Source: an uncultured Myxococcales bacterium
GTDB taxonomy: Bacteria; Myxococcota_A; UBA9042; DTJE01
Direction of reading: 5' to 3'
Length of the DNA: 64,000 nt
NCBI GenBank assembly: GCA_903847405.1
Contig: CAINDP010000153.1
Coordinates: forward strand, 4,121 to 68,120
The position numbers were made by a program, and so were the translations under genes. Below are positions 25,096 through 40,341 of the stretch, in pieces; position 1 is the stretch's first letter, and each line of letters begins with the position of its first letter. The notes beneath the pieces are model-generated. The model made no database searches, had not been told where the DNA came from, and saw nothing but the letters and a program-made list of their open reading frames with translations.

Positions 25096-25099
<4 letters not shown>

Positions 25100-26901
25100 T
25101 CGCAGGTCACGTGGATGTCGAACCGGTTCCCGTACCAGATCTCCTCGGACACGATGTAGTACGGTCGTCCGGCCTCCGCCGTGAACGTCACCTCGGCATA
25201 CCAGCCATAGTCCCCGGCGATGCACGTCGCAGGGTTGCAGGCGCCCGACAGGACGTAGACCGACACAGGATCGCCACCGGAGTCCGAATAGTCGATCCGC
25301 GCCGTCACCTGCCGGGTCACCGGGCTGACGAACTTCCAGATCGTTTCGTCCCCGGACAGGTCGTCGTTGCCGCAGGCCGCGCCGGCCGTGCCCGTCAGGT
25401 TGTTGTCGTAGGCCACCAGCCAGTACTTCGTCATGCCGCAGGTCGCGTCCCCATCCACCTTGGTGCACGTGTCGGGCGTGCAGGGCGGAATGCCCTGGCA
25501 ATCCGTGTCCGCGCAGTCCGTGGCGCCGTCCAGGTCGTCGTCCCAGCCGTCGGCGCACAGGGTTTCGCGGGTCGGGCAGGCGCCGCCGCAATCGACCGGG
25601 CAGGTGGCGCAGGTTTCGGCGGGCCGTGCGCAGGTGCCATCGCCGCACCGCGGGCCGGGCACGCACGCCTCCAGCGCGCACCGGTCGCCCAGGGTCGCCG
25701 GGTCGCCGTCCTCGCAGGGCGCCGTGTTGGCCGCATGCGCGCAGGCGTTGGCCGGGCACGTGTCGTCCGTGCAGGGATTGCCGTCGCCGCACTCGGACGC
25801 GTCCACGCACTCGCAGACCCGCAACCCGGGGACGCAGGCCCCCGCGGTGCAGGCGTCCGGCGCGGTGCAGGGGTTCCCGTCGTCGCAGGACGTGCCGTCC
25901 ATCACGTCGCTGTAGTCGTCGGTCGCGATGTCGGGCGCGCAGACCCGGCAGGTGTTCCCGGGCGCGGTCGCGGTCGCCGGGACGCAGGCCCCGGCCACCA
26001 GGCAGGTCCCGGCATCCAGCACGTGGGTGCAGGTCCCGTCGACGCACCGGTCGGCCGTGCAGGCAATCCCGTCGTCGCACCGGGCGTCGCCGTCGCACTG
26101 GCAGACGCGCGGTCCCGGGACGCAGGCCCCGTCGGCGCAGGCGTCACCGGCGGTGCACCCGTCCCCGTCGGCGCAGGGCGCGGTGTTGAACGGGTGCTGG
26201 CAGTGCCCTTCCAGGCAGAAATCGTCGGTGCAGGGATCCGCGTCGGGGCATTCGGCGTCGGTCCGGCACTCGCAGTCCAGCGTGCCGCCGGTGCAATTCC
26301 CCTTGTGGCAGACTTCGCCGCTGGTGCAGAAGTCCCCGTCGTCGCATTCCTGGCCTTCCAGGAAACCCGAGTCCAGCACGCAGTGCCCGGTGGCCGGATT
26401 GCAGCGGTTGGGTCGGCAGGCCAGGCCGTAGATCGGGTCGCACTGCGTTTCGTCCGTGCACCAGCAGGTCAGCGAACCGGGTGCGCAGAGGGATGCGACG
26501 GCGTCCGTGCCGGAATCCGTGGCGCCCGGGTCGGCAGGCGTGTCGCCCGGTGCATCGGTCGGGGGGAGGTCGGTTGCCGTTGCGTCGGCAACATCCGGGG
26601 CCGGATCGGTCCCGTCGCCGGGATCGGCCAGGTCCCGCGGGACCGGCAGGTCGGTGGGTTCCCAGGCGTCGGCGCCGTCGTCCGTCGGGCCGGGATCGGT
26701 CGCGGCGTCCGCCGGCACGTCCCGCGCAGCCACGTCCCGGAGCGTCGCGTCCCCGTCATCCCGGGCGCCCGGGTCCTGGCCGGCGTCCCGCCCGTTGATG
26801 ATCACGATTTCCCCCAGAACGTCCGTGGACGTCCCGGCCCCGCCCGAACACCCTGCTGCCAGCAGCACCAGGACGATCGCTCCCGCCTGTCCCCTGCGCA
26901 T
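25096..26901 (-). CDS. lipoprotein with Myxococcus-type cysteine-rich repeats (TIGR02232-like) and C-terminal pre-peptidase-C-like domain
   Basis: Lipobox MRRGQAGAIVLVLLAAGCSG; roughly 40-aa modules repeated about five times, e.g. CDDGNPCTAPDACTAGACVPGLRVC and CGDGNPCTDDTC; acidic DPG linker. Confidence 0.6.
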
Positions 26902-26977
26902 CGAAACCCCCTCGCGGCGCGGGTAGCATAACCGAACCGCGCGTGTCCTTGTCATCCGGGTTTCGGGGGTCGAAAAC

Positions 26978-28072
26978 TCAGTACTGAAGGCCGACATTCA
27001 GGCCCACCAGGTGCGCCTGCGTGTCGTAGTCCGCGGCGTTGGACCATTGCCGGATGTAGGAGTAGGAGGCCGTCACGGTCAGTTCGATCGCCCCGAAGGC
27101 GTGCGTGTATCCCAGGGAGGCCATCGGGATCAATTTCCGGTCCTGGCGGCTGGACGCCACGACGGTTCCCCCCAGATCGGTCGCAGGCCAACCCGGGAAC
27201 TCCAGGGTCCGGAATTCCAGCCCGGCCGTGAGCGACCACCCCCGGGGCAGCATCTGCTTGTACTTCAGGTAGGCCCGATGGCCCCCGGCCAGGAAGTCCG
27301 ACGTCAGGAACGCGAACTGCGTCTGGGTCAGTTTCCGCGCCAGGGCCTGGCTGGACGACAGGAGGTATCGATACGAGTAGTCCGCCTGCAGCCCGCCCTG
27401 GGCCCACAGGCCCTGGCTGATGTGCAGACCGACGTCCATCTGGTGGTCGTCGCGATCGACCCGTCCCTGCCCCTGCCCCTTCAGACCCAGGTTGTACCGG
27501 AAGCCGTAGCCCACGCGCGGGGTCAGCGTGGTCCGGGACGGCAGCGTGAACCGGACCTCGGTGGTCGCCAGCGCGTCCAGGGCGTCCGACGCACGATCGT
27601 CGTAGAAGCCGCGGTACCGGATCGTCACGCCGGCCTGCCACGCGGCCCAGGTCGTGGGCTCCAGGCTGACCGCGGCGTTCAGCGTCCCTCCGACGAAGTT
27701 CAGGCCGTCGTAGGCCGCCTGGTTCCGCAGGGTCTCGACCGCCAGGGCCACCAGGAACTCGTTCCTCCCGTCGGGACCGAAGGCGGGGTTCACCTGCAGC
27801 CGCAAGGCGTGGTCGTGGGAGGTCAGGTCCGTGTGGGACGTGAAGATTTCGGCGGCCCCGTCATACTGCAGCGTCCAGGCGGTTCCGAAGTCCATGCCCG
27901 CCTTCAGGCTGGGCAGGATCGACACGTCCCATTCGGGGGTGTGCATCAGGAACACGTTGTCGGTCCAGACGCTGCCGACGGCGCCCGCCGCGCTGAATTC
28001 CTGCGCCCGGGCCGGGCCCGCAACCAGGCCGGTTGTCACAGCGCACAGCAGGGCCAGCGTCGCAACCTTCAT
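26978..28072 (-). CDS. putative outer-membrane beta-barrel protein
   Basis: Signal peptide MKVATLALLCAVTTGLVAGPARAQE; alternating amphipathic strands; C-terminal LNVGLQY aromatic end; start overlaps upstream small gene (ATGA). Confidence 0.5.
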   Translation of the reverse strand: MKVATLALLCAVTTGLVAGPARAQEFSAAGAVGSVWTDNVFLMHTPEWDVSILPSLKAGMDFGTAWTLQYDGAAEIFTSHTDLTSHDHALRLQVNPAFGPDGRNEFLVALAVETLRNQAAYDGLNFVGGTLNAAVSLEPTTWAAWQAGVTIRYRGFYDDRASDALDALATTEVRFTLPSRTTLTPRVGYGFRYNLGLKGQGQGRVDRDDHQMDVGLHISQGLWAQGGLQADYSYRYLLSSSQALARKLTQTQFAFLTSDFLAGGHRAYLKYKQMLPRGWSLTAGLEFRTLEFPGWPATDLGGTVVASSRQDRKLIPMASLGYTHAFGAIELTVTASYSYIRQWSNAADYDTQAHLVGLNVGLQY

Positions 28073-28455
28073 TTCCCGCCATCCTGGCACGAACCATTGC
28101 CGTCCGCGCCGCCTCGGAACCGCCGCATCGTGCCGGACCCGGTGCCCGCCCCTGCGGCCCCGTGGCCCATGACTCCCTTCCCGTGCTTCCGGAACCGGTG
28201 CTCCTGCCCGTCCTGGATGCCGTCGCCGTCGCGGTCCACGAACCCTGCACCCGCGTCCGACGCGGCGTTCGAGGCTGGAACCACCGCCGGCACAACCGCG
28301 GCAGGGGGCGTCACGACAGGTTCCGGAGTACCTGCCGCACCCGGTGCCGCCTGGACGGCCGCAGCCCTTGCGGGCTCGACCGCCGCCTGGGCCACCGCCA
28401 TCCGCGGCAGCACCGACGCACCGACCAGCACCAGCAACGTCATCCGGATGTTCAT
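28069..28455 (-). CDS. small secreted protein with DxDGDGxxD (TSP3/EF-hand-like) motif, Ala/Pro-rich
   Basis: Signal peptide MNIRMTLLVLVGASVLPRMAVAQA; GFVDRDGDGIQDGQEH motif; Gly/His-rich tail. Confidence 0.5.
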   Translation of the reverse strand: MNIRMTLLVLVGASVLPRMAVAQAAVEPARAAAVQAAPGAAGTPEPVVTPPAAVVPAVVPASNAASDAGAGFVDRDGDGIQDGQEHRFRKHGKGVMGHGAAGAGTGSGTMRRFRGGADGNGSCQDGGK

Positions 28456-28514
28456 GATGCCTCCGCGGCCCGGGGGGAGCGTGTCCCCCCGGGCCGTCCA
28501 GGTCGCACCCTGCC

Positions 28515-28919
28515 CTACTGGGCCTTTCCCTTGCCGCTCTTGGCGTTGTCGCACACGCCGTCGCCGTTCGCGTCGACGAAGCCGGCGCCGTGCACGCCCT
28601 TGCCCATGCCCTGGCCCTTGCCCTGGCCCTTGCCCTGGCCCTTGCCCTTGGACATGCCCTTGCCCTGGCCGCCGGTTCCCTTCTTGTCACAGATCCCGTC
28701 GCCGTCGGCGTCCACGAAAGCCGCGCCCGTGCCGTCCTTGGCCTGGATCTGGGTCTGGTCCTTGGCCTGGACCTGGGTCTGGTCCTGGGCCTGCGTCGCC
28801 TGGCCCGCCTGGGCTCCCTGGCCCTTCCCCTTCACCGGGTCCGCGTCGTCCGCGAACGCCACCGAGGGCAGGCCCGCCATCACCACCACCAGGAACAGGT
28901 TCTTCATGTTCGTCTTCAT
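28515..28919 (-). CDS. small secreted Lys/Gln/Gly-rich protein with two DxDGDGxCD putative Ca-binding motifs (paralog of 39670..40086)
   Basis: Signal peptide MKTNMKNLFLVVVMAGLPSVAFA; GFVDADGDGICDKKG and GFVDANGDGVCDN; (GKGQ)n repeats; sigma-54 promoter upstream. Confidence 0.6.
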   Translation of the reverse strand: MKTNMKNLFLVVVMAGLPSVAFADDADPVKGKGQGAQAGQATQAQDQTQVQAKDQTQIQAKDGTGAAFVDADGDGICDKKGTGGQGKGMSKGKGQGKGQGKGQGMGKGVHGAGFVDANGDGVCDNAKSGKGKAQ

Positions 28920-28976
28920 CACCGGACCTCCTGGGCTGCAAGTACCAGCCCCCCACGGGCCGGCAAGGATTGTTGA

Positions 28977-28994
28977 TTGCGAGCGCCGTGCCAC
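28977..28994 (-). promoter_or_regulatory. sigma-54 (-24/-12) promoter TGGCAC-N5-TCGCA reading toward 28919
   Basis: Minus-strand sequence TGGCACggcgcTCGCAA; GG and GC spaced as in consensus TGGCAC-N5-TTGCA; about 55 nt upstream of start codon; NtrC-type activator gene immediately upstream. Confidence 0.55.
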
Positions 28995-29078
28995 GGGGAA
29001 AAGTATTTCACAAACACCCGTAGTCCTTGCGGTATCGCGATTTTCAGCCCGGGATGTCTGCCCGGCGCCCCCGGAACC

Positions 29079-29117
29079 TCGACGTTTTCGTCGAAGCCTC
29101 TCGACGTCCCGGTCGAA
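29079..29117. promoter_or_regulatory. two adjacent inverted repeats (TCGACG-TTTT-CGTCGA and TCGAC-N6-GTCGA), candidate enhancer (UAS) for the sigma-54 promoter about 100-130 nt downstream on minus strand
   Basis: Perfect palindromes read directly; same pair conserved upstream of second promoter copy near 40247..40285. Confidence 0.4.
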
Positions 29118-29124
29118 CCGGCCG

Positions 29125-30492
29125 TCAGCCCAGGCCCAGTTTCTGCATCTTGTAGCGGATCGCCCGCTCGCCCAGGCCCAGGTCCCGGGCCGCGGCGCTC
29201 TGGTTCCCCCCGTGGCGCTCCAGCGCCCGGCGGATCAGGTCCCGCTCAAGGTCGGCCACCTGTTCCTCCAGGCCGCCCGTCGCCGGTTCCGAACGCGCGC
29301 CGGCCGGCGCCTGCCCCCCGGCCGGCGGGAAGTCCCCCGCCTCCAGGACCGGCCCGTCCGCCAGCACCAGGGCCCGCTCCACCATGTTTTCCAGTTCCCG
29401 GATGTTCCCCGGAAACGGCTGGCGGGCCAGTGCGTCCAGGGCCTCGTCCGACACGCCGGCGATCCCCGTCGTGGAAAGGTCCGCATGCTTCCCGACGAAG
29501 TGCGCCACCAGGGCGGGGATGTCCCCCGTCCGCTCCCGGAGGGCCGGCATCCGCAACGTCACGACGTTCAGGCGGTAGAACAGGTCCGCCCGGAACTCAC
29601 CCGTCCCGATCCGCGCCTCCAGGTCCCGGTGGGTGGCCGCGATCACCCGGGCGTCGGTTTCCAGCGGCTGGGTTCCCCCGACCCTCTCGAACCGCCCGGT
29701 CTGCAGCACGTTCAACAGTTTCACCTGGACCGACAGGGGGATGTCCCCGACCTCGTCCAGGAACAGGGTCCCGCCCTTGGCCAGTTCCAGACGCCCCTTC
29801 TTCTGCGCCGAGGCGCCCGTGAACGCCCCCTTCTCGTGTCCGAACAGTTCCGACTCGACCAGGGTTTCGCTGAGGACCGCGCAGTTCAGCGTCACGAAGG
29901 GCCCGTCCCGGCGGCTGGACAGGCGGTGCAGCGCCCGGGCCACCACCTCCTTCCCCGTCCCCGACTCGCCCAGGATCAGCACGGACGCACGGCTGGGCGC
30001 GACCTTGACCGCCAGTTCCTTGACCTGGCGCACGGCCGCACTGTCCCCCACCCAGTCCCCGAAGGCATCCGCCACCACGACCGCCTGGCGCAGCGACCGG
30101 TTCTCGCGGGACAGCCCCACCTTTTCCAGGGCCTTGGCCACCAGGGCCTCCAGGCGGGCCAGGTCCACCGGCTTGCCCAGGAAATCGTAGGCCCCGGCCC
30201 GCATGGACCGGACCGCATCCTCGACGGTTCCGTAGGCGGTCACCACGATGGCCTGCAGATCCGGATGGATCCGCCGCAGGTCGCCCAGCAGTTCGATGCC
30301 GTCGGGCCCGCCCAGCCGAAGGTCGGTGATCAGCAGGTCGATCGCCCGGTCCCGGGCCCGCTCCTGCGCCTCCGCTGCCGACCCGGCCTCCTCGACGTCA
30401 TAGCCCGCCTTCCGCAGGAAGCCCGCCAGCATCCGCCGCTGGGCCGCGTCGTCCTCGGCCACCAACAGGGTTCCCTTGTCACGTGCATTCAT
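29125..30492 (-). CDS. sigma-54-dependent response regulator (NtrC family: receiver + AAA+ + Fis-type HTH)
   Basis: Receiver (LLVAEDDAAQRRM...DLLITDLRLGG), Walker A GESGTGKE, GAFTGA motif, ESELFGHEKGAFTGA, C-terminal HTH; internal ATG MNARDKG overlaps HK stop (ATGA). Confidence 0.9.
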   Translation of the reverse strand: MNARDKGTLLVAEDDAAQRRMLAGFLRKAGYDVEEAGSAAEAQERARDRAIDLLITDLRLGGPDGIELLGDLRRIHPDLQAIVVTAYGTVEDAVRSMRAGAYDFLGKPVDLARLEALVAKALEKVGLSRENRSLRQAVVVADAFGDWVGDSAAVRQVKELAVKVAPSRASVLILGESGTGKEVVARALHRLSSRRDGPFVTLNCAVLSETLVESELFGHEKGAFTGASAQKKGRLELAKGGTLFLDEVGDIPLSVQVKLLNVLQTGRFERVGGTQPLETDARVIAATHRDLEARIGTGEFRADLFYRLNVVTLRMPALRERTGDIPALVAHFVGKHADLSTTGIAGVSDEALDALARQPFPGNIRELENMVERALVLADGPVLEAGDFPPAGGQAPAGARSEPATGGLEEQVADLERDLIRRALERHGGNQSAAARDLGLGERAIRYKMQKLGLG

Positions 30493-32297
30493 CGTTGCAT
30501 TCCTTCCGCCTGCCCCTGCGGGCCGCCCTGCGTCCCCGATACGGGCAGCGTCACCGTCGCCCGTGTACCGCTGCCCGGAATCGAGTCCAGGACCAGGGTT
30601 CCCCCGTGCGCCTCGGCCAGACGCCGGGCCAGGGGCAGGCCCAGGCCCGTCCCGTGGGCCTTCGTCGTCACGAAGGGCGCCTGCACGCGCTCCAGCGTCG
30701 CGGCGTCCATCCCCGGGCCGTCGTCGGACACCACCAGCCGGAACGCGCCCCGGTCGCAGTCCGCCGCGACCGTGACACGACCTGCCGGTCCCACCGCATC
30801 CAGGGCGTTCGCGACCAGGTTGGCCACGATCTGCCCGAACCGCTGCCTGTCCACCAGGACCTCGCCCGGGCAGTCGCACCGGACGTCCAGCCCCTTCCCC
30901 TCGGACGCGGCCCTCATCCCCAGCGACGCCAGGGCCTCGTGCACCAGTCCGGCGGCAGGATACGCGCGCCGGTCCAGTTCCAGCGGCTTGCCCAGCTCCA
31001 GGAACTCCGCCACGACCCGCTCGACCCGGTCCGAGGCGTCCGCCGACAGCATCAGCAGTTCGCGGAAGCCCTCCTCGTCAGCAGGGTCCACCCGGACCTC
31101 CCGGGACAGGCGCTGCAGGGCCATGCCGATGGTGTTCAGAGGGTTGCGCACCTCGTGGGCCACGGTGGCCGCCATCAGGCCCAGGGATCGCCAGTGGCGC
31201 CCCTCCTCCTCGCGATGGCGCATCGCGGCCAGGAACTCGGTCCGTCGGCGGGCGCCCCGGCCCAGCACCCAGGCCAGCGCCAGGCTCAACAGCACCGCCG
31301 CTGCCAGCACCCCGAACATGACCGCCTGCCGCAGGGCGATCCGCCGGCCGAAGCTGACCAGTTCCCCGGCATCCAGGGCCGTCCGCACCACCGCGCGGGT
31401 CCCGTCGGCCAGGTCCAGGGGCCCGATCACCTCGTACACCGACTGGCCGTCCCGCTCCAGCATCCGCCCCTGCAACCCGTCCGGCGCCCCGTCCCGGGCC
31501 TGGGCCAGCACCGGATCCTGCAGCCAGGTCGACATCTGCCCCGGCGCGGGCGAGGCCGCCAGGATCCCCCCGGGATCCTGGACCACGACGTATTCCAGGT
31601 CCTGGTCCTTCAGGTCGGCCAGAAGGGGTCCCAGGCCGACCTCCCGGCGCATCCCGTCCAGGTCGTCCCGATCCAGGCACACCACGGTCGCGACGCCGTC
31701 CCCCCGGGCCCAGGCACAGAAGACCCCCAGGTCGCGGGTTCGTTTGTCGTCCACGAAATCGCCCTCGGGCACGGCCAGGACCCCATCCACGAAGGCGACA
31801 CGCCCGGCGACAGGCACCCGATCCAGGCATCCCCGCACCCCGTCCGCATCGCGACGGGCCCAGATCGCCAGGTCCGGAACCCGCGCCTGCAGGGCGACGC
31901 AGTCCTCGCGGTCACCGGGCGGTCCCAGCAACTCCAGCAGCAGGGCCGCGGCTTCCGCCGACATCGAGTACACAAGGCCCGTGGACCACGTGGCTTCCTG
32001 GGCCGCTTCCCGAACCAGGTGGCCTGCGGAACGGGCATGGGATTCGTAGACCTGGCGCAACGCGTCGACCTGCCGGTCCTGCTCCACCCGGGTGGCGATC
32101 ACCAGGACGGCAGACAGGCCCGCCACGACCAGCGGGATCAGTCCGAATCGCAGATGGGGGTGATGCACCGTGTCCGCCCTCAAAATCGAACCATTGTAGC
32201 CTACGCGATATATTTCTTTCTTGCCATACTTGACACCTCCACCTCCGATTTCCACTCTTTGCCCGTCAGGCTCATGGCGGCATGCCGTGCAGCCCAA
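30489..32297 (-). CDS. sensor histidine kinase with large periplasmic sensor domain between two TM helices
   Basis: TM1 LIPLVVAGLSAVLVIAT, approx 270-aa periplasmic region, TM2, H-box HEVRNPLNTIGMALQRL, HATPase (GTGLGLPLARRLAEAHGG); true start probably internal (GTG near aa 44), 5' end uncertain. Confidence 0.75.
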   Translation of the reverse strand: MGCTACRHEPDGQRVEIGGGGVKYGKKEIYRVGYNGSILRADTVHHPHLRFGLIPLVVAGLSAVLVIATRVEQDRQVDALRQVYESHARSAGHLVREAAQEATWSTGLVYSMSAEAAALLLELLGPPGDREDCVALQARVPDLAIWARRDADGVRGCLDRVPVAGRVAFVDGVLAVPEGDFVDDKRTRDLGVFCAWARGDGVATVVCLDRDDLDGMRREVGLGPLLADLKDQDLEYVVVQDPGGILAASPAPGQMSTWLQDPVLAQARDGAPDGLQGRMLERDGQSVYEVIGPLDLADGTRAVVRTALDAGELVSFGRRIALRQAVMFGVLAAAVLLSLALAWVLGRGARRRTEFLAAMRHREEEGRHWRSLGLMAATVAHEVRNPLNTIGMALQRLSREVRVDPADEEGFRELLMLSADASDRVERVVAEFLELGKPLELDRRAYPAAGLVHEALASLGMRAASEGKGLDVRCDCPGEVLVDRQRFGQIVANLVANALDAVGPAGRVTVAADCDRGAFRLVVSDDGPGMDAATLERVQAPFVTTKAHGTGLGLPLARRLAEAHGGTLVLDSIPGSGTRATVTLPVSGTQGGPQGQAEGMQR

Positions 32298-32319
32298 GGG
32301 CTTTCAACAGGAGGTTCCC

Positions 32320-32721
32320 GTGAACAGTTCTTCCCGTGATACCCAGTCCCCGGCTGCAAGCGGCAGTCCCGTCATTGCCCTGACCGACGACACCTTCGAG
32401 GCCGAGGTCCTGCAGTCGACCCTGCCCGTCTTCGTTGACTTCTGGGCCCCCTGGTGCGGCCCCTGCCGCATGGTCGCGCCCATGGTCGAGGAACTGGCCC
32501 GCGAGTACGCGGGGCGCATCAAGTTCACCAAGCTGGACACCGACAAGAACCCGGGCGTGTCGTCCGCCCTGGGCATCCAGTCGATCCCCACGCTGGTCCT
32601 GTTCCAGGGCAACCAGGCGCTGGACTACCGCATCGGCGCGGTCCCGAAGGACGACCTCCGCCGCATGTTCGACGCCGCGCTGGCCAAGGGGGCCGCTGCG
32701 GCGACCGACGACCAGGCGTAG
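32320..32721 (+). CDS. trxA: thioredoxin
   Basis: GTG start preceded by AGGAGG SD; active site WAPWCGPC; thioredoxin fold length. Confidence 0.85.
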   Translation: MNSSSRDTQSPAASGSPVIALTDDTFEAEVLQSTLPVFVDFWAPWCGPCRMVAPMVEELAREYAGRIKFTKLDTDKNPGVSSALGIQSIPTLVLFQGNQALDYRIGAVPKDDLRRMFDAALAKGAAAATDDQA

Positions 32722-32793
32722 GCCGGGAACAGGAACGTGCCCGCCCCTCCGAGATCGCGGATCCGCACCCGTCAAGCCAGACAAGGAATCCCT

Positions 32794-34122
32794 TCAGGGA
32801 AAGCGGATCGCGAACCGCCGCATCTTCCGCATCAAGGTGGCCTTGTGGATTCCCAGGGCCTGGGCCGTCCGCACGCGGTGTCCGCCATTTTCCGCCAGCG
32901 CGGCACGGATGACCACCGCCTGGGCCTGGTCGAAGGCGTCGGAGGTCGCGGGCCCGGGAGGCAGGTCCGGAAGCGGCCCCCGGGCGATTTCCGGCGGAAG
33001 GCAGCACACGTCGATGTTCGGCCCGCGGCACAGCACGAACGCGTGCTCGATCGCGTGTTCCAGTTCGCGGATGTTCCCGGGAAAGTCGTATCGCAGCAGG
33101 GCGTCCAGCGCGTTCGGCGTCACCCCCCGGATCTCCCGGCCGGTCTGGGCAGCGAACAACTGAATGAAGTGGCGGACCAGCAGGGGGATGTCTTCCTTGC
33201 GGTCCCGCAACGCCGGCAGTTCGATCCGCACGACGTTCAGGCGATAGAACAGGTCGTCCCGGAACCGGCCCTCGGCCATCAACTGCCGCAGGTCCCGGTT
33301 CGTCGCGGTGACGACCCGTGCATCCGCCTTCACCGTTCGCGAGGACCCCAGGGGCTGGTATTCCTTCTCCTGCAGCACCCTCAGCAGTTTCACCTGCAGG
33401 GCCGTCGAGATATCCCCGATTTCGTCCAGGAACAGGGTCCCCCCCTGGGCCGCCGCGAACCGCCCGATCCGATCGTGCCGGGCGTCGGTGAAGGCACCGG
33501 CCTTGTGGCCGAACAGTTCGGATTCCAGCAGCGTGTCCGGCAGGGCGGCGCAGTTCAGGGCAACGAAAGGCCGATCCCGACGAGGGCTGCCGTCGTGGAT
33601 CGCCCGGGCGAACAGTTCCTTGCCCGAACCGCTGGGTCCCTGGATCAGCACCGTGCTGCCGGCCGCTGCGATATCCGGCAGGACGCGCAGGATTTCCTGG
33701 ATCCGGTGGCTCTTGCTGACGATGTCGCCCACCCGGAACCGTTCGCGCAACTGGCGCCGCAACAGTTCCAGTTCGGACAGGTCGCGAAAGGTTTCGACCC
33801 CGCCCACGGCCCGTCCCGAGGCGTCCTTCAACACCGCCGTCGAGATGCTGAGGGGCTTTTCCGTACCATCCCGCGCGCGCATCGTCACCCGAACGTCCAC
33901 GGCCTCACGCCCCGAACCCATCGTCGATCGAAGGGCGCAGCGCCGCGCGCAGGCGTCCGTCCGAAAGACCTCGCTGCACTGCCGCCCGAGGGCCTCGTCG
34001 CGCGTGAAGCCGGTGATGGCGTGGGCGGCCCGGTTCCAGGACGTGATCCGCCACTGGTCATCCACGGTGAAGACGCCGTCGGCGATGGAGTCCAGGATGG
34101 GATCGGTGCGGTCAGTCGGCAT
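32794..34122 (-). CDS. sigma-54-dependent transcriptional activator with N-terminal PAS domain
   Basis: PAS (ILDSIADGVFTVDDQWRITSWNRAAHAITGF), AAA+ Walker A GPSGSGKE, ESELFGHKAGAFTDA, GAFTGA-like, C-terminal Fis HTH; divergent from mrp paralog. Confidence 0.85.
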   Translation of the reverse strand: MPTDRTDPILDSIADGVFTVDDQWRITSWNRAAHAITGFTRDEALGRQCSEVFRTDACARRCALRSTMGSGREAVDVRVTMRARDGTEKPLSISTAVLKDASGRAVGGVETFRDLSELELLRRQLRERFRVGDIVSKSHRIQEILRVLPDIAAAGSTVLIQGPSGSGKELFARAIHDGSPRRDRPFVALNCAALPDTLLESELFGHKAGAFTDARHDRIGRFAAAQGGTLFLDEIGDISTALQVKLLRVLQEKEYQPLGSSRTVKADARVVTATNRDLRQLMAEGRFRDDLFYRLNVVRIELPALRDRKEDIPLLVRHFIQLFAAQTGREIRGVTPNALDALLRYDFPGNIRELEHAIEHAFVLCRGPNIDVCCLPPEIARGPLPDLPPGPATSDAFDQAQAVVIRAALAENGGHRVRTAQALGIHKATLMRKMRRFAIRFP

Positions 34123-34229
34123 CGGAACCTCCGGCCACGGGCATGGTCGCAAAATCGCGACCACGCTTCAAGGATTGCTTTGATGCACGGATGCGAATAA
34201 CTTGCAGCCGCGGATAGCGGAGGCCCCCC

Positions 34230-35168
34230 ATGGGATGCGGTTGCGGCGACGGGCAGGACACAGGCGGGTGCGGCGGACACGAGCACGGACAGACCTTCCA
34301 GCCCGATGACATGGCCCGCGCGGCGATGCGGCGGATCCCCCACAAGATCCTGGTGATGAGCGGCAAGGGAGGCGTCGGCAAGACCACCGTGGCCGTCAAC
34401 CTGGCCTACGCACTGGCGGCCGCCGGCCACAAGGTCGGGATCGTGGACGCGGACCTGCACGGGCCCGACGTCCCGCTGATGACCGGGGTCGAGGGACTGC
34501 GGGCCCAGGCCAGCGACGAGGGGCTGATCCCCATCGACGCGCCGGGCGGCGTCCGCATCCTCTCGGTGTCGTCGTTCCTGGCCTCCCCTGACGCCCCGGT
34601 GATCTGGCGCGGCCCGGCCAAGGCCGGCGTCATCGCCCAGTTCCTGGGCCTGGCCGACTGGAAGGGCACCGACGTCCTGATCGTGGACTGCCCCCCCGGA
34701 ACCGGGGACGAACCCCTGTCCGTGGCCCAGATGATCCCGGATGCCGACGGCGTCGTGATCGTCACGTCGCCCCAGGGCGTGTCGCTGCTGGACAGCCGCA
34801 AGTGCGTGGGCTTCGCGCGCCAGATGGACCTGCCGGTGCTGGGGATCGTCGAGAATTTCTCGGGGTTCGAATGCCCCGGTTGCGGGCGCCGCATCGACCT
34901 GTTCAAGCGGGGCGGAGGCCGTCAGGCGGCGACCGACCTGGGCGTCCGTTTCCTGGGCAGCATCCCGATCACCGAGGCGATGGTCGAAGCGGGCGATTCG
35001 GGTCGGCCCCTGGTGGTTTCGACCCCCGACGATCCGGCGTCCCTGGTACTGACCGCGATGGCACAGGAACTGGTCGCGGACTGGGTGTCCGGCAGCGTCG
35101 GCGCGCCGATCGGCGAAGGGTGTTGCGGCAGTTGCGCGTGCCACGAACCGGTTCCCGGTCAGGACTGA
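34230..35168 (+). CDS. Mrp/ApbC/NBP35 family Fe-S cluster carrier ATPase with Cys/His-rich N- and C-termini
   Basis: Deviant Walker A SGKGGVGKTT, CPxC-type motif CPGCGRR; N-term MGCGCGDGQDTGGCGGHEHG and C-term CCGSCACHEP; SD GGAGG upstream. Confidence 0.85.
   Translation: MGCGCGDGQDTGGCGGHEHGQTFQPDDMARAAMRRIPHKILVMSGKGGVGKTTVAVNLAYALAAAGHKVGIVDADLHGPDVPLMTGVEGLRAQASDEGLIPIDAPGGVRILSVSSFLASPDAPVIWRGPAKAGVIAQFLGLADWKGTDVLIVDCPPGTGDEPLSVAQMIPDADGVVIVTSPQGVSLLDSRKCVGFARQMDLPVLGIVENFSGFECPGCGRRIDLFKRGGGRQAATDLGVRFLGSIPITEAMVEAGDSGRPLVVSTPDDPASLVLTAMAQELVADWVSGSVGAPIGEGCCGSCACHEPVPGQD
34305..35040. repeat. approx 740-bp segment about 90% identical to 46655..47395 (mrp paralog core)
   Basis: Direct nucleotide comparison of both mrp genes. 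Confidence 0.8.
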
Positions 35169-35198
35169 TCGCGCATCCGCATGGACCCGGCTCGCGGC

Positions 35199-36362
35199 TC
35201 AGCCGGGCGCCCCCGACTGCAACCCCGGCACTTCCCGGTACGCGGGACATTCCTCGCCGCTCACCACCTCCGCTGCCTGCCGCAAGGCGTCCAGCGTCTG
35301 GTACCCGACCAGCCGCGCGACCTCCTTCCGGTCCCGATCCAGGTACACGAAGACCGGGATGCCGCCGATACCGAACGACCGCGCCAGAGGCTTGCCTTCA
35401 GGGCTGGTCACGTCCACCTGGCGGATTTCCAGGGGATGCCCGTCGCACTGGTTCCGAAGGACGTTCACGGCCGGCATCATCTGCCGGCAGATCGGACAGT
35501 TGGGGGAGTAGAACTCGTACAGCACCGGCAGCGGGTCCTGGGCTGCGCCGCATTGGATGTCGACAGCGTGTTCGTCCCCACCGCCGCACGTGGCGCCTTG
35601 TGCCGGGTTCGGCGTGGCCGCGGCAGACAAATCCGGGGGCTCCGCCGCCGACGCCGATACCGGCGCCTCGGGTGGCTGGGCCAGCGCGTAGTCCAGCAGC
35701 CCCAGGCGATCGGTGGCCAGAAGGAACCCGACCACCACCAGCAGCAACCCGGTGGACTTTTCGAATACCGGAATGAACCGCCGCACCTTGCGCAGCGCCG
35801 CCAGGGCCGGCCCCGCCACCAGGGCCACCAGGACCAGCGGCACCGCGAACCCCAGCGAGTACAGGGACAGGTAGCCCATGCCCACCAGGGGATCCGAGGT
35901 CTTCAGGGAGGTGTAGGTCAGGACCGCGCCCAGGACGGATCCGATGCAGGGGCTCCAGGCGAAGGCGAAGAACAGCCCCAGCACGAAGGAATTCAGGTGG
36001 TGGAACCGCGTCTTGAACCGGCCCGCATCCAGGCCGCCGCCACCGTCCAGGCCGGGCAGTTTCAGGTAGCCCATGAACCGCAGGCCCAGCAGCAGCACCA
36101 CGAATCCGCCCAACTGCTGGAACAGCACCTTGTGGTCGACCAGCGCCCGCCCCAGGACGGTTGCCGACAGGCCCAGCAACGAGAACACCAGCGTGAACCC
36201 GGCGGCGAAGGCCAGGCTGGACACGAAGCCCCTGAAGCGGCCGCCCCCCTCCCCGCCCCCGCCCGAAAGGATCGACAGATAGATTGGGATCAGGGGCAGG
36301 ACGCACGGGGAAACGAACGTCAGCAGCCCCGCCACGAACACCGCTGCAGCGGACATCACCAT
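35199..36362 (-). CDS. CcdA/DsbD-family thiol:disulfide interchange membrane protein fused to C-terminal thioredoxin-like domain
   Basis: DsbD-beta-like TM core with conserved Cys pairs (SPCVLPLIP; AWSPCIG) and C-terminal CPICR thioredoxin-fold domain. Confidence 0.8.
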   Translation of the reverse strand: MVMSAAAVFVAGLLTFVSPCVLPLIPIYLSILSGGGGEGGGRFRGFVSSLAFAAGFTLVFSLLGLSATVLGRALVDHKVLFQQLGGFVVLLLGLRFMGYLKLPGLDGGGGLDAGRFKTRFHHLNSFVLGLFFAFAWSPCIGSVLGAVLTYTSLKTSDPLVGMGYLSLYSLGFAVPLVLVALVAGPALAALRKVRRFIPVFEKSTGLLLVVVGFLLATDRLGLLDYALAQPPEAPVSASAAEPPDLSAAATPNPAQGATCGGGDEHAVDIQCGAAQDPLPVLYEFYSPNCPICRQMMPAVNVLRNQCDGHPLEIRQVDVTSPEGKPLARSFGIGGIPVFVYLDRDRKEVARLVGYQTLDALRQAAEVVSGEECPAYREVPGLQSGAPG

Positions 36363-36399
36363 ACCGTCCTCCCTGGGACAGGGCCGATGCACCCGGGCA

Positions 36400-36612
36400 T
36401 CAGGCTTCGTCCTTCACGGCGCAAGTCCCGGCCCCACAGAGGCGGGACAGGGGACAACTGCCGACCAGGCCCGTGACGATCGGGATGATCCCCAGGGCTC
36501 CCCAGGGCGTCTGGGGACCGACGAACACCAGGCTGATCATGCCCAGGCCAGCCAGGACGCGCACCACGCGCTCGACGTTGTGGACGTTGCGGGGAAGAAG
36601 TTTCCGGAACAT
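36400..36612 (-). CDS. DUF2892 (YgaP-C-terminal-like) small membrane protein
   Basis: 70-aa product MFRKLLPRNVHNVERVVRVLAGLGMISLVFVGPQTPWGALGIIPIVTGLVGSCP matches the small 2-TM proteins usually linked to rhodanese. Confidence 0.5.
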   Translation of the reverse strand: MFRKLLPRNVHNVERVVRVLAGLGMISLVFVGPQTPWGALGIIPIVTGLVGSCPLSRLCGAGTCAVKDEA

Positions 36613-36862
36613 CGGGACCTCCAGGTTGTTGGCCACCTGCGCAGGTTGCAACGGGGCAGGCACGACCCGCGCTTCGGGTCGCACCTCGGCAAGCCTCGCC
36701 GGGACCTGACCTCCAAACATTACCTCATGGATATATTTCGCGCAAGCGATATTTAGAAATTCTTTCCACCTTCCTTCATCGGAAGACCGCCTTGACATCC
36801 GCATCGCTCTCCTTACTTTCCATTCACGACATATGCCGCCCGTGGCATCATGGAGGTGCGGA

Positions 36863-37480
36863 ATGGTTCGGACAGTCGCGAACTTCGACGATCTGACGGC
36901 GGCGACCGGCGGACTGAAGGGCCCCTCGGTGGTGGCGTTCTTCGGCGACTTTTCGGAAAAGTCGCGCCGGGCCTGGCCGGTATTCGAGGCCTTCTGCAAG
37001 GCACACCCGGAACTGGATGTGCACCTCGTCGACCTTGACAGGGTCCGGGACGTGCACCGGCGCCTCGGCGTCACGCTGGCCCCGACGGTCCTGCTGATGC
37101 GCGACGGCGCCGTTCATCAGCAACTCGTGGGTGTGCAGACGGACGCGGACTACCAGGCGGCCCTGCTGCCTCACACCAGACCGGCGCCCGGGCCGCAGGC
37201 GGGCGCAACCGCACACCCGTCCCACCGGGTACTGGTGTACACGGGCCCGGGCTGCTCCTGGTGCACCCGCGTGAAGGCCTACCTGCGCCAGCGCAACGTG
37301 TCCTTCACCGAGATCGACGTGTCCCTGGAACCGGCCCAGGCCCAGGCCCTGGTGCGAAAGACCGGCCAGACCGGGGTTCCCCAGTTGGACATCGACGGCC
37401 GCTACGTCGTCGGCTTCGACAAGGCCCGGATCGACGCCCTGCTGGGACTGGCGCCGCAGGCTTCCGCAGGCACCCACTGA
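36863..37480 (+). CDS. thioredoxin-like domain fused to glutaredoxin-like (YruB-type) domain protein
   Basis: N-terminal Trx-like region then glutaredoxin fold with CSWC active site (VLVYTGPGCSWCTRVKAYL...GVPQLDIDGRYVVGFD). Confidence 0.65.
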   Translation: MVRTVANFDDLTAATGGLKGPSVVAFFGDFSEKSRRAWPVFEAFCKAHPELDVHLVDLDRVRDVHRRLGVTLAPTVLLMRDGAVHQQLVGVQTDADYQAALLPHTRPAPGPQAGATAHPSHRVLVYTGPGCSWCTRVKAYLRQRNVSFTEIDVSLEPAQAQALVRKTGQTGVPQLDIDGRYVVGFDKARIDALLGLAPQASAGTH

Positions 37481-37620
37481 CCTCCGAGGATGGAACGACC
37501 ATCGGGCGCTCGATTGGGAAATGCTGCCAGTTCACGTTTGTGAGCGATACCTGCGCTTGACCGAACCGGATGGATACGGGAATATGCCCACCATTCCACC
37601 CGGACGCAGGAGGTTCGGCC

Positions 37621-39669: not shown

Positions 39670-40086
39670 CTACTGGGCCTTCCCCTTGCGGATCTGGGCG
39701 TTGTCGCACACCCCGTCGCCGTCCGCGTCGACGAAGCCGGCGCCGTGCAGCCCCTTGCCCTTGCCTGCCGCCTGGCCGGCGCCCTTGCCCTGGCCCTTGC
39801 CCTTGGACATGCCCTTGCCCTGGCCGCCGGTACCCTTCTTGTCGCAGATCCCGTCGCCATCGGCGTCCACGAAGCCCGCGCCCGAGCCGTCCTTGAGCTG
39901 GACCTGGGCCTGGTCCTTGGCCTGGACCTGGGTCTGGTCCTTGGCCTGATCCTGGGCCTGGGTCGCCGTGCCCGACTGGACGCCCTGCCCCTTCCCCTTC
40001 ACCGCGTCCGCGTCATCCGCGAGCGCCACCGCGGGCAGGCCCGCCATTGCCACCACCAGGAACAGGCTCTTCAAGTTCGTCTTCAT
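39670..40086 (-). CDS. small secreted Lys/Gln/Gly-rich protein with two DxDGDGxCD motifs (paralog of 28515..28919)
   Basis: Signal MMKTNLKSLFLVVAMAGLPAVALA; GFVDADGDGICDKKG and GFVDADGDGVCDN. Confidence 0.6.
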   Translation of the reverse strand: MKTNLKSLFLVVAMAGLPAVALADDADAVKGKGQGVQSGTATQAQDQAKDQTQVQAKDQAQVQLKDGSGAGFVDADGDGICDKKGTGGQGKGMSKGKGQGKGAGQAAGKGKGLHGAGFVDADGDGVCDNAQIRKGKAQ

Positions 40087-40143
40087 CACCGGACCTCCTG
40101 GGTTTCAAGCACCAGCCCCCCACGGGCCGGCAAGGAATGTCCA

Positions 40144-40161
40144 TTGCGAGCGCCGTGCCAA
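40144..40161 (-). promoter_or_regulatory. sigma-54 promoter TGGCACggcgcTCGCAA (second copy)
   Basis: Identical -24/-12 elements to copy at 28977; UAS palindromes at approx 40247..40285. Confidence 0.55.
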
Positions 40162-40341
40162 CTGGATGCATATTTCGTAAGCGTTGGTTATGTCTGCTGT
40201 ATGCGCCCTTGCGACCACCGGCTGTCGTCCGGTCGCCTCCGGGTTCCCGACGTTTTCGTCGAAGACCCTCGACGTCCCGGTCGACCCGACGATCACCCAA
40301 GGCCCGGCTTCCGGATCTGGTCGGAAACTTCAGGCCGCGCG

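What the first reader, a model, noticed from the sequence alone, without database searches (positions are those of the whole stretch)
28515..29125. Sigma-54 promoter with conserved enhancer palindromes driving a small secreted DxDGDGxCD-motif protein, directly downstream of its likely NtrC-type two-component system
Seen: minus-strand TGGCACggcgcTCGCAA has exact -24 GG / -12 GC spacing about 55 nt upstream of the ATG at 28919. Two perfect inverted repeats (TCGACG-TTTT-CGTCGA and TCGAC-N6-GTCGA) lie about 95-130 nt upstream of the promoter, the classic bEBP enhancer distance. The sigma-54 RR gene ends only about 130 nt further upstream. An AT-rich tract (AAAGTATTTCACAAACA) between UAS and promoter could be an IHF bend site. 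The product is a 134-aa secreted K/Q/G-rich protein with two thrombospondin-type-3/EF-hand-like loops (GFVDADGDGICD, GFVDANGDGVCDN) and (GKGQ)n repeats, so it is possibly a calcium/metal-binding extracellular protein of unknown function.
Basis: partly seen in the sequence, partly recalled or inferred. Interest (0 to 1): 0.7.

Follow-up and report, generated by a model that had tools for sequence, protein, structure and literature searches.

The report
Sigma-54 switch for secreted calcium-motif protein
A two-component sensor next door most likely switches on, through a sigma-54 promoter and two conserved binding palindromes, a small secreted, disordered protein with calcium-type Asp/Cys motifs; the wiring is ordinary, but the protein family is large, unnamed and almost always sits next to envelope signalling genes.

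Summary
On the minus strand, TGGCACggcgcTCGCA (28978-28993) sits about 100 nt downstream of two perfect TCGAC-N6-GTCGA palindromes (29079-29094, 29101-29116). These start 8 nt after the stop of a REC-AAA+(GAFTGA)-Fis-HTH response regulator.

A second copy of the gene, promoter and palindromes lies at 39670-40284. Between the two copies the palindromes are 92% identical and the promoter 100%, but the spacer only 56%.

The same architecture precedes homologous genes in more than 15 loci. The genome-derived ones are labelled Myxococcales, Acidobacteria, Bacteroidetes, Calditrichaceae and Ignavibacteriales. All lie beside an orthologous kinase and regulator.

The cassette is kinase, regulator, small protein 1, small protein 2 and a 16-strand outer-membrane barrel. 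Its flanks differ in every genome examined.

The 134-aa product has a Sec signal and is predicted disordered. It carries two FVDxxGDGxCD motifs, a Cys variant of bacterial TSP3 calcium loops. It matches no Pfam or NCBIfam family.

Its family has about 3,900 clusters at 50% identity. In 47 of 80 genomes it lies within 2.5 kb of a sigma-54 regulator, an ECF sigma or an OmpR-type regulator.

The regulatory reading is supported. The IHF site is not. Cation binding is inferred only.

The parts
30489..32168 (-). Sensor histidine kinase. It has two transmembrane segments around a periplasmic domain of about 250 aa that matches no family, followed by HisKA and HATPase_c. The longest ORF runs to 32297.
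   Evidence: Pfam HisKA and HATPase_c. Best NCBIfam match is ZraS, kinase core only, 168 bits against a cut-off of 479. Hydrophobic segments lie at about residues 50-70 and 322-346. It is called as 559 aa on identical contigs. The periplasmic part is homologous to the L007, L066 and L081 kinases.
29125..30492 (-). NtrC-family response regulator and sigma-54 enhancer-binding protein (REC, AAA+ with GAFTGA, Fis-type HTH). It is the proposed activator.
   Evidence: Pfam. NCBIfam AtoC, NtrC and ZraR matches all fall below the equivalog cut-offs. The HTH signature is shared with regulators of loci that carry the same palindromes.
29101..29116 (-). Distal enhancer palindrome TCGACCGGGACGTCGA (UAS1).
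   Evidence: Identical in copy B (40269-40284). The motif is conserved in more than 15 loci.
29079..29094 (-). Proximal enhancer palindrome TCGACGAAAACGTCGA (UAS2), 22 bp from UAS1 and 101 nt upstream of TGGCAC.
   Evidence: The identical 16-mer occurs in L012, L003 and L095. L007 has it with 1 mismatch.
28999..29016 (-). AT-rich tract TGTTTGTGAAATACTTTT in the spacer. It may contribute an intrinsic bend. It is not an IHF consensus site.
   Evidence: There is no WATCAANNNNTTR match with up to 2 mismatches. The spacer as a whole is only 56% identical between the paralogues.
28978..28993 (-). Sigma-54 (-24/-12) promoter TGGCACggcgcTCGCA. The predicted start of transcription is near 28967.
   Evidence: It is 100% identical in copy B. 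Sigma-54 promoters occur at the same place in L012, L003, L092, L095, L096, L097, L007, L014, L066, L081, L030, L073, L099 and L100. No sigma-70-like promoter was found in 26500-32500.
28945..28963 (-). Conserved 5'-UTR inverted repeat CCGGCCC..GGGCUGG, just after the predicted start of transcription.
   Evidence: Present in 7 of 7 clade members. It is conserved mainly in sequence, with only 1 compensatory pair. Role unknown.
28515..28919 (-). Small secreted protein 1 (134 aa). It has a Sec signal, a Q/D/K/T-rich stretch, FVDADGDGICD, a (GKGQ)n linker and FVDANGDGVCD.
   Evidence: 247 homologues in the word-indexed search. 3,940 cluster representatives in the exhaustive search. AlphaFold2 mean pLDDT 43, so predicted disordered. 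No significant Pfam or NCBIfam match.
28466..28496 (-). Intercistronic G+C stem-loop of 13 bp, directly before the GGAGG ribosome-binding site of gene 2. No U-tract follows.
   Evidence: The 65-nt segment folds at -40.1 kcal/mol, z = -3.07. It is conserved in position in L003 (z = -3.09) and after copy B, where there is a compensatory G:C to A:U change.
28069..28455 (-). Small secreted protein 2 (128 aa). It has an A/P/V-rich stretch, one Cys-less motif FVDRDGDGIQDG followed by EHRFRK, and a G-rich tail.
   Evidence: The orthologue in L004 keeps FVDRDGDGIQDGKEHRFRK. TSP3_bac scores only E = 0.05, 13.9 bits against a cut-off of 25.
26978..28072 (-). Outer-membrane 16-strand beta-barrel (364 aa). 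It has a Sec signal and a C-terminal ...GLQY. Its start overlaps the stop of gene 2 by 4 nt.
39670..40284 (-). Copy B, a dispersed duplicate. It comprises palindromes at 40269-40284 and 40247-40262 (the latter with 1 mismatch), promoter at 40145-40160, CDS at 39670-40086 (138 aa, 82% identical), and a 3' stem-loop. No regulator gene lies upstream, only weak similarity to the 3' end of the regulator gene.

Best explanation
This is the output promoter of a self-contained envelope-sensing cassette: kinase, regulator, two small secreted proteins and an outer-membrane barrel.

Proposed mechanism:
1. The kinase senses something in the periplasm through a 250-aa domain of unknown family and phosphorylates the NtrC-type regulator.
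2. Regulator dimers bind the two TCGAC-N6-GTCGA palindromes, which lie two helical turns apart.
3. The bound regulator assembles into an oligomer, loops over the spacer of about 85 nt, and uses ATP to open the sigma-54 closed complex at TGGCAC-N5-TCGCA.
4. The transcript encodes small protein 1. Past a strong intercistronic stem-loop it also encodes small protein 2 and the barrel.
5. The same regulator acts in trans on copy B, 11 kb away.

Small protein 1 is exported by Sec and is disordered on its own. Its FVDxxGDGxCD motifs are a Cys-bearing variant of bacterial TSP3 calcium loops. It most likely binds Ca2+ or another divalent cation in the periplasm. It would serve as the abundant effector of the response, and perhaps also feed back on the sensor.

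Shown by sequence comparison: the promoter, the palindromes, their spacing, and their linkage to the regulator. Inferred: regulator binding, the signal, the cation binding, and the role of the barrel.
For: Motifs and their rarity.

Paralogue footprint: palindrome block 92%, spacer 56%, promoter 100%, 5' UTR 90% and CDS 89% identical.

Orthologous and distant loci: two palindromes 20-22 bp apart (77-79 bp in L007 and L014) lie about 92-125 nt upstream of a sigma-54 promoter that precedes a homologous small gene. These loci are L012, L003, L092, L095, L096, L097, L007, L014, L066, L081, L058, L089, L086, L099 and L100.

Background: across 340 kb (both strands) of those loci there are only 12 sigma-54 matches with up to 1 mismatch, and on one strand of them 23 exact palindromes. 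Most of both are the sites themselves. Among 70 homologous loci without a sigma-54 regulator, 1 has such a promoter and 1 has a palindrome.

Linkage: the kinase and regulator co-occur in both gene orders. The kinase periplasmic domain is homologous across these loci.

Recognition helix: it is shared where the palindrome is present and differs in L030 and L073, where it is absent.

No alternative promoter: no sigma-70-like promoter lies in the region.

Product: signal peptide and motifs, predicted disorder. The family profile also retrieves proteins that score 2e-81 on Pfam TSP3_bac. The only PDB sequence hit is an OmpA TSP3 protein, 5wtl, E = 0.11.

Support for an abundant effector: a second promoter-bearing copy, tandem or extra small genes in L086 and L083, and the stem-loop after gene 1.

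Analogy: a periplasmic calcium-binding protein coupled to an ECF sigma has been described in Caulobacter (PMC13171946).
Against: There is no transcription start, expression or binding data. rpoN was not looked for in the window.

The -12 element is TCGC rather than TTGC.

Some distant loci have weak -12 elements without GC (L083, L086, L089, L058).

The small proteins do not reach the threshold of any calcium-binding family: FG-GAP_3 E = 0.017, TSP3_bac E = 0.05, EF-hand E above 0.1.

The conserved Cys is not a calcium ligand, and its role is unexplained.

The two paralogues differ by more non-synonymous (24) than synonymous (10) codons, so only the motifs look constrained.

No metal transporter or other informative gene is conserved next to the cassette.
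Confidence: 0.6

Rival explanations
1. The small protein is mainly a signalling accessory rather than an effector. It would bind the extracytoplasmic domain of the kinase, perhaps depending on a cation or on thiol state, and set or shut off the response. CpxP does this for CpxA and ZraP for ZraS. In other lineages it would do the same for anti-sigma factors and OmpR-type kinases.
For: In 47 of 80 genomes a family member lies within 2.5 kb of a sigma-54 regulator, an ECF sigma or an OmpR-type regulator, co-directional in all but one (L066). ECF sigma genes number 34 within 2.5 kb and none further out, although the loci hold more sequence further out. In Firmicutes it is the first gene of a small-gene, ECF sigma, RsgI-like anti-sigma unit. 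Caulobacter CaBP and sigV form such a loop (PMC13171946).
Against: Extra copies without a sensor (copy B) and tandem copies fit an abundant effector better than a stoichiometric partner. Resistance and stress effectors also sit next to their regulators, so linkage alone does not discriminate. There is no similarity to CpxP or ZraP. No interaction test was possible.
Confidence: 0.25
2. The small proteins are cargo of the 16-strand barrel. They would be exported to the cell surface, where calcium-bridged, Lys/Gln/Gly-rich chains form a matrix, coat or adhesive layer.
Confidence: 0.12
3. The palindromes are transcription terminator hairpins of the regulator gene, the TGGCAC match is chance, and the small gene is read through from the kinase-regulator operon.
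For: The palindromes start 8 nt after the regulator stop codon and could form short hairpins. One-mismatch matches to the sigma-54 consensus are expected 1.5 times per window.
Against: Copy B keeps both elements with no regulator gene upstream. In L007, L081, L066 and L083 the elements precede the first gene of the unit, and the regulator lies downstream. What is conserved is the sequence TCGAC/GTCGA, not merely pairing, and no T-run follows. The terminator scan found nothing. The promoter is 100% conserved next to a 56% spacer.
Confidence: 0.03

Closest known systems
ZraPSR of Escherichia coli and Salmonella, a sigma-54 envelope/zinc stress system (established knowledge; reviewed in PMC4987338)
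   Same: It has a membrane kinase with a periplasmic sensor domain and an NtrC-family regulator. The regulator activates, from a sigma-54 promoter with upstream binding sites, a small Sec-exported periplasmic protein encoded next to the system. The kinase core here scores best against ZraS, and the regulator scores well against AtoC, NtrC and ZraR.
   Different: All NCBIfam scores are far below the equivalog cut-offs. The periplasmic sensor domain is unrelated by sequence. The product has no LTXXQ/CpxP-like domain and is predicted disordered. This cassette adds a second small protein and an outer-membrane barrel. The gene order is co-directional, not divergent.
Bacterial TSP3 repeats (Pfam PF18884), for example in OmpA-family proteins (PDB 5wtl)
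   Same: They share the core D-x-D-G-D-G-[VI]-x-D. A profile of the small-protein family retrieves proteins with canonical DTDGDGVPD repeats, one of which scores 2e-81 on TSP3_bac. 5wtl is the only PDB sequence hit.
   Different: Here Cys replaces Pro before the last Asp, and an aromatic-Val pair precedes the motif. There are only 1-5 motifs, separated by G/K/Q/R linkers, in a free-standing protein of about 130 aa. The Pfam threshold is not reached.
Caulobacter vibrioides CaBP-sigV circuit (PMC13171946)
   Same: It is a Sec-exported periplasmic calcium-binding protein of about 133 aa, encoded directly beside an envelope signalling regulator (an ECF sigma), with mutual regulation. That parallels the ECF-linked members of this family.
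   Different: CaBP has canonical helix-loop-helix EF-hands with Glu at loop position 12 and a confident fold. This family has neither. There is no detectable sequence relationship, and the regulator type differs.
SilE and PcoE periplasmic metal sponges beside the silRS and pcoRS two-component systems (own knowledge, not checked here)
   Same: They are small, signal-peptide-bearing, intrinsically disordered periplasmic proteins that fold on metal binding. They are encoded next to, and induced by, a two-component system.
   Different: Their ligand chemistry is His/Met for Ag+ and Cu+, against Asp/Cys here. Their regulators are OmpR-type with sigma-70 promoters. There is no sequence similarity.

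Membership tests
Sigma-54 (-24/-12) promoter | GG and GC dinucleotides separated by 10 nt, within TGGCAC-N5-TTGCW | tested here: met
   TGGCACggcgcTCGCA matches 15 of 16 positions with GG-N10-GC spacing. It is identical in copy B and present in orthologues.
Sigma-54 (-24/-12) promoter | An enhancer-binding AAA+ activator with a GAFTGA loop is available | tested here: met
   The adjacent regulator has Sigma54_activat at 8e-70 and the sequence ..HEKGAFTGA...
Sigma-54 (-24/-12) promoter | Transcription starts about 12 nt after the GC and depends on rpoN | not testable with these tools
   This needs 5' RACE and an rpoN mutant. rpoN itself was not searched for in the window.
Bacterial enhancer (UAS) for an NtrC-type activator | Paired inverted repeats on the same helix face, about 80-150 bp upstream of the promoter | tested here: met
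   Two 16-bp palindromes lie 22 bp apart, 101 and 123 nt upstream of TGGCAC.
Bacterial enhancer (UAS) for an NtrC-type activator | The site is conserved together with the cognate regulator across species | tested here: met
   More than 15 loci keep TCGAC-N6-GTCGA. The HTH signature tracks the motif. Only 1 of 70 loci without a sigma-54 regulator has the palindrome.
Bacterial enhancer (UAS) for an NtrC-type activator | The regulator physically binds the site | not testable with these tools
   This needs an EMSA or footprint.
IHF-assisted sigma-54 promoter | A WATCAANNNNTTR site lies between the UAS and the promoter | tested here: not met
   The window spacer has no match with up to 2 mismatches. 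Orthologues show only scattered 2-mismatch hits.
ZraS/ZraR/ZraP system | Kinase and regulator reach the NCBIfam equivalog scores, and the product is a CpxP/LTXXQ-family protein | tested here: not met
   ZraS scores 168 against a cut-off of 479, and ZraR 393 against 760. The product has no LTXXQ/CpxP-like hit.
Bacterial TSP3 repeat (PF18884) | Pfam gathering score of 25 bits | tested here: not met
   Gene 2 scores 13.9 bits, E = 0.05. Gene 1 has no hit at E up to 0.1. The motif core DxDGDGxxD is present by eye, and the family profile cross-hits TSP3_bac proteins.
EF-hand | A 12-residue loop ending in Glu, flanked by two helices, at Pfam threshold | tested here: not met
   Homologues score E = 0.12-0.76, below the cut-off. 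No helices are predicted. There is no Glu at loop position 12.
Pfam PF27309 (MJ0753_N) | A significant match to the model | not testable with these tools
   Only 'faint' precomputed hits exist on some homologues. The model did not appear in any local Pfam scan, including scans of homologues carrying the precomputed PF27309 hit.
Two-partner-secretion TpsB transporter (for the barrel) | A 16-strand barrel plus N-terminal POTRA domains | tested here: not met

The most novel reading that the evidence does not exclude
The FVDxxGDGxCD repeat proteins may be a universal extracytoplasmic co-sensor. In this reading a small disordered protein's cation- or thiol-dependent state is read by three unrelated transmembrane signalling architectures: NtrC-type kinases, OmpR-type kinases and ECF anti-sigma factors. 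This would hold across more than ten bacterial phyla and some archaea. The cassette in this window would be its diderm form, with a dedicated outer-membrane channel.
Probability: 0.2. Interest if true: 0.75.

Novelty: new variant of a known kind. Interest (0 to 1): 0.55.

Why it matters
The transcriptional logic is textbook: a two-component system, an enhancer and a sigma-54 promoter. That part alone is ordinary.

What is not described, as far as the libraries and papers searched here show, is the cassette it controls. It comprises a sensor kinase with an unassigned periplasmic domain, two secreted TSP3-like repeat proteins and an unassigned 16-strand outer-membrane barrel. The cassette travels as a unit with variable flanks. 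It keeps the same 16-bp operator in loci labelled Myxococcales, Acidobacteria, Bacteroidetes, Calditrichaceae and Ignavibacteriales.

The small-protein family is large, about 3,900 clusters at 50% identity. Every source name seen for it is 'hypothetical protein', and it is persistently wired to envelope signalling systems of three different types. Working out its ligand would assign a function to thousands of genes in mostly anaerobic bacteria, including gut Oscillospiraceae and Lachnospiraceae. It would also define a new envelope response.

The conserved operator and promoter make the regulon directly predictable in any genome that carries the regulator.

Tried and rejected
- Pfam and NCBIfam on small protein 1, small protein 2, the barrel and the Cys-rich neighbour gave no family at threshold.
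- AlphaFold2 on small protein 1 with an 18-sequence alignment gave pLDDT 43. That is unusable for fold search, so none was run on it.
- A profile search of the PDB with the small-protein family gave only an OmpA TSP3 protein at E = 0.11.
- The kinase periplasmic domain against the PDB gave nothing below E = 0.18.
- Rfam at gathering thresholds on 26500-41500 gave no RNA family.
- The sigma-70 promoter and intrinsic terminator scans on 26500-32500 found nothing.
- The IHF consensus in the spacer was rejected.
- The 5'-UTR hairpin is conserved in sequence but has only one compensatory pair, so structure is not demonstrated.
- The afdb50 fold library was unavailable.
- The metagenome scan with the barrel alignment returned only 7 loci.
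- Literature searches for the motif strings, for MJ0753 and for ECF/RsgI context returned nothing. The Desulfovibrio sigma-54 regulome paper does not mention this motif.
- A codon-level comparison of the two paralogues showed no clear purifying selection outside the motifs.
- Conserved neighbours such as metal transporters were looked for and not found.
- The Cys-rich 601-aa gene downstream was considered as part of the operon. It was rejected because it is absent beside the cassette in L012, L099 and L100.
Full report
**1. What is in the sequence**

Read on the minus strand, the region contains, in order:
- the last codons and the stop (29125) of a response-regulator gene
- TCGACCGGGACGTCGA at 29116-29101
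- TCGACGAAAACGTCGA at 29094-29079
- an 85-nt spacer ending in an AT-rich patch (29016-28999)
- TGGCACggcgcTCGCA at 28993-28978
- a UTR of about 48 nt with an AGGAGG ribosome-binding site (28932-28927)
- an ATG at 28919, opening a 134-codon ORF that ends at 28515

The promoter match has the diagnostic GG-N10-GC spacing and matches 15 of 16 consensus positions. One-mismatch matches to TGGCAC-N5-TTGCW are expected 1.5 times per window, and 4 were found, so the match alone is weak evidence. The palindrome pattern TCGAC-N6-GTCGA is expected 0.12 times per window. It occurs 3 times, always upstream of this gene or its copy. No sigma-70-like promoter or intrinsic terminator was found in 26500-32500, and no Rfam family in 26500-41500.

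**2. The genes**

The upstream gene (29125-30492) encodes REC, a sigma-54 AAA+ domain, an AAA lid and a Fis-type HTH. It has an intact GAFTGA loop. It belongs to the AtoC/NtrC/ZraR group but lies below every equivalog cut-off.

Before it lies a histidine kinase (30489-32168). It has two transmembrane segments around a periplasmic domain of about 250 aa that matches no Pfam family and no solved structure. Its kinase core is most like ZraS.

Downstream of the 134-aa gene, after a 13-bp G+C stem-loop (28466-28496; the 65-nt segment folds at -40 kcal/mol, z = -3.1), come two more genes:
- A second secreted small protein (28069-28455) with one Cys-less motif, FVDRDGDGIQDG.

None of these three products matches Pfam or NCBIfam.

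**3. An internal control: the paralogue**

An 11-kb-distant duplicate (39670-40284, minus strand) carries the same promoter (40145-40160), the same distal palindrome (40269-40284), the proximal one with one mismatch (40247-40262), a 138-aa gene and the 3' stem-loop. No regulator gene precedes it. The 36 nt aligned with the regulator's 3' end are 67% identical, little above the 56% of the spacer.

Region by region, the two copies compare as follows:

| Region | Identity |
|---|---|
| Palindrome block | 92% |
| Spacer | 56% |
| Promoter | 100% |
| 5' UTR | 90% |
| CDS | 89% |

The palindromes and promoter have therefore been kept while the DNA between them drifted. That is the expected footprint of functional sites. 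It also excludes the idea that the palindromes are merely terminators of the regulator gene.

**4. Orthologues and distant relatives**

Contigs encoding the identical protein show the same five-gene order. A 'Deltaproteobacteria' MAG (small protein 43% identical, regulator 76% identical) has the kinase, the regulator, TCGACggtcgcGTCGA-4 nt-TCGACgaaaacGTCGA, TGGCACaccggCTGCA, and then small protein 1, a stem-loop, small protein 2 and the barrel.

A genome scan with the family alignment and a metagenome scan with the barrel alignment, plus targeted look-ups, gave more than 15 loci with three shared features. Each has one or two TCGAC-N6-GTCGA palindromes, usually 20-22 bp apart. These lie about 92-125 nt upstream of a sigma-54 promoter. 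The promoter in turn lies about 35-95 nt upstream of a homologous small gene.

The labelled genomes are Myxococcales (L012), Acidobacteria (L058), Bacteroidetes (L081), Calditrichaceae (L089) and Ignavibacteriales (L086). The other loci are unlabelled MAGs or metagenome contigs (L003, L007, L014, L066, L092, L095-L097, L099, L100).

The derived operator consensus is TCGAC-S-N4-S-GTCGA. The promoter-proximal site often has an A/T-rich centre; the exact 16-mer TCGACGAAAACGTCGA recurs in four loci.

In several of these loci (L007, L081, L066, L083) the order is small gene, barrel, kinase, regulator (on the opposite strand in L066). There the sites precede the first gene and the regulator lies downstream. 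This argues that the sites belong to the small gene's promoter and not to the end of the regulator gene.

Controls:
- Across 340 kb (both strands) of these loci there are only 12 sigma-54 matches with up to 1 mismatch, and on one strand of them 23 exact palindromes. Most of both are the sites themselves.
- Of 70 family loci without a sigma-54 regulator, one has such a promoter and one has a palindrome.
- The regulators of palindrome-bearing loci share GNQSAAARxLGxSERxxRYK in the HTH. Two Hydrogenedentes loci have a sigma-54 promoter but no palindrome, and they read GNKTxAAALLxISRRNLIYK.
- The kinase periplasmic domains of L007, L066 and L081 align with the window's.

The flanks of the cassette differ in every genome. 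The Cys-rich gene downstream in the window is not conserved.

**5. The IHF suggestion**

The AT-rich tract is real. However, there is no WATCAANNNNTTR match in the window's spacer even with two mismatches, and orthologues show only scattered two-mismatch hits. The spacers are less G+C-rich than their surroundings and often A/T-rich just upstream of the -24 element. Intrinsic curvature or another architectural protein therefore remains possible. An IHF site is not supported.

**6. The product**

Small protein 1 has a Sec signal (AFA|DD) and a Q/D/K/T-rich stretch. It carries two FVDxxGDGxCD motifs separated by GKGQGKGQGKGQG, and it contains two Cys in total. AlphaFold2 gives pLDDT 43 with no secondary structure.

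Homologues are small secreted proteins with 1-5 copies of [FY][VI]D-x-[DN]-x-[DN]-G-[VI]-C-D between G/K/Q/R linkers. An exhaustive profile search found 3,940 cluster representatives at E up to 1e-3 and 1,143 at E up to 1e-10. Most are 110-260 aa. Every source name seen is 'hypothetical protein'.

The profile also retrieves large surface proteins with canonical DTDGDGVPD repeats that score up to 2e-81 on Pfam TSP3_bac. The only PDB sequence hit is an OmpA TSP3 protein (E = 0.11). The motif is therefore best described as a Cys-for-Pro variant of the bacterial TSP3 calcium loop. The window proteins themselves do not reach any Pfam threshold.

Members with three motifs, and therefore three motif Cys, are common, and most hosts are anaerobes. 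Both points argue against obligatory disulfide pairs and leave a thiolate ligand or a redox role open. This is inference.

**7. Genomic company of the family**

Of 80 genome loci, 47 have a signalling regulator within 2.5 kb of the small gene, co-directional in all but one (L066):

| Regulator within 2.5 kb | Loci | Lineages |
|---|---|---|
| ECF sigma | 34 | 26 followed by an RsgI-like anti-sigma, in Firmicutes and Coriobacteriia; 8 in Bacteroidota, Desulfobacterota and others |
| OmpR-type regulator, in most cases with a kinase-like gene detected downstream | 7 | mostly Chloroflexota and Zixibacteria |
| Sigma-54 regulator | 7 | three further loci have it 3.4 kb or more downstream, behind the barrel and kinase |

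One locus (L026) has both an ECF sigma and an OmpR-type regulator, which is why the rows sum to 48.

ECF hits number 34 in the near 361 kb and 0 in the far 505 kb. The family is thus tied to envelope-spanning signalling in general, not to sigma-54 in particular.

A published analogue exists. Caulobacter CaBP is a 133-aa periplasmic EF-hand protein beside the ECF sigma gene sigV, and the two regulate each other (PMC13171946). It belongs to a different, folded family.

**8. Most likely mechanism and rivals**

Best-supported reading: the kinase senses a periplasmic cue and phosphorylates the regulator. Regulator dimers bind the two palindromes on one face of the helix, oligomerise, loop to the sigma-54 holoenzyme and open the promoter. 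The transcript yields much small protein 1 and, past the stem-loop, small protein 2 and the barrel. Copy B is activated in trans.

The product is most likely a periplasmic, disordered binder of divalent cations of the calcium type. It would be the main output of the response and possibly its feedback element.

The cis-regulatory part I hold at about 0.85, the biochemical role at about 0.35, and the statement as a whole at 0.6.

Rivals:
- a pure co-sensor role like CpxP or ZraP (0.25)
- export through the barrel to build a surface layer (0.12)
- terminator plus chance promoter (0.03, contradicted by sections 3 and 4)

**9. Comparison with known systems and novelty**

It works like ZraPSR: a kinase and an NtrC-type regulator drive a sigma-54 promoter for a small periplasmic protein. 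It fails the membership tests for that system.

It is not an EF-hand protein or a TSP3_bac member by threshold. The barrel is not a TpsB transporter, since it has no POTRA domain.

The regulatory design is of a known kind. The cassette, its operator and the small-protein family are, as far as these libraries and papers show, undescribed. Verdict: a new variant of a known kind, interest 0.55.

Noticed in passing
window 39670-40284 (-): A dispersed duplicate of the small gene with its own palindromes, sigma-54 promoter and 3' stem-loop lies 11 kb from the two-component system. The 36 nt aligned with the regulator's 3' end are only 67% identical.
   Followed up: yes
window 46355-46370 (-), ATG at 46255: A third sigma-54-like promoter, TGGCACgtctcCTGCT, lies about 95 nt upstream of a multihaem cytochrome gene (Cytochrome_cB). 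It is divergent from a second copy of an Mrp/NBP35-type ParA gene: 46650-46949 is 88% identical to 34300-34599. The first copy of that gene sits beside a PAS sigma-54 activator (32794-34164). This may be a second sigma-54 regulon.
   Followed up: partly
window 39376-39618 (+): A HicA-like toxin gene converges on copy B of the small gene. A HicA-like gene also lies near the cassette on a related contig.
   Followed up: no
window 25096-26901 (-): A 601-aa secreted Cys-rich protein with internal 137-nt repeats and no Pfam match follows the barrel gene. It is not conserved next to the cassette in other genomes.
   Followed up: partly
window 28466-28496 (-); L003 about 10117-10153; window about 39621-39651 (-): A very stable G+C stem-loop with no U-tract sits right after small gene 1 and before the ribosome-binding site of gene 2. 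It is conserved in position in an orthologue and in copy B, where there is a compensatory change. It may act as a partial terminator or an mRNA stabiliser that sets the ratio of gene 1 to the downstream genes.
   Followed up: partly
window 28945-28963 (-) and orthologues (alignment A4): A conserved inverted repeat CGGCCCG..CGGGCCG lies at about +5 to +25 of the predicted transcript in all seven clade members. It is conserved mainly in sequence, so it could be an RNA 5' hairpin or a DNA site for another factor.
   Followed up: partly
L013, L018, L020, L025, L028, L031, L033 and others (genome-contig loci): In Firmicutes and Coriobacteriia the homologous small gene is the first gene of a unit made of the small gene, an ECF sigma and an RsgI-like anti-sigma (26 loci). 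In Chloroflexota and Zixibacteria it precedes an OmpR-type regulator, with a kinase-like gene detected downstream in most cases.
   Followed up: partly
L004 2195: The orthologous barrel gene in this MAG contig carries an in-frame TAG. This could be a pseudogene or an assembly error.
   Followed up: no
window 28561-28576 and 39716-39731: The DNA that encodes the VDANGD/VDADGD part of the motif matches the palindrome pattern with one mismatch (TCGCCGTTCGCGTCGA on the + strand). It lies inside the CDS and is taken as coincidence.
   Followed up: no
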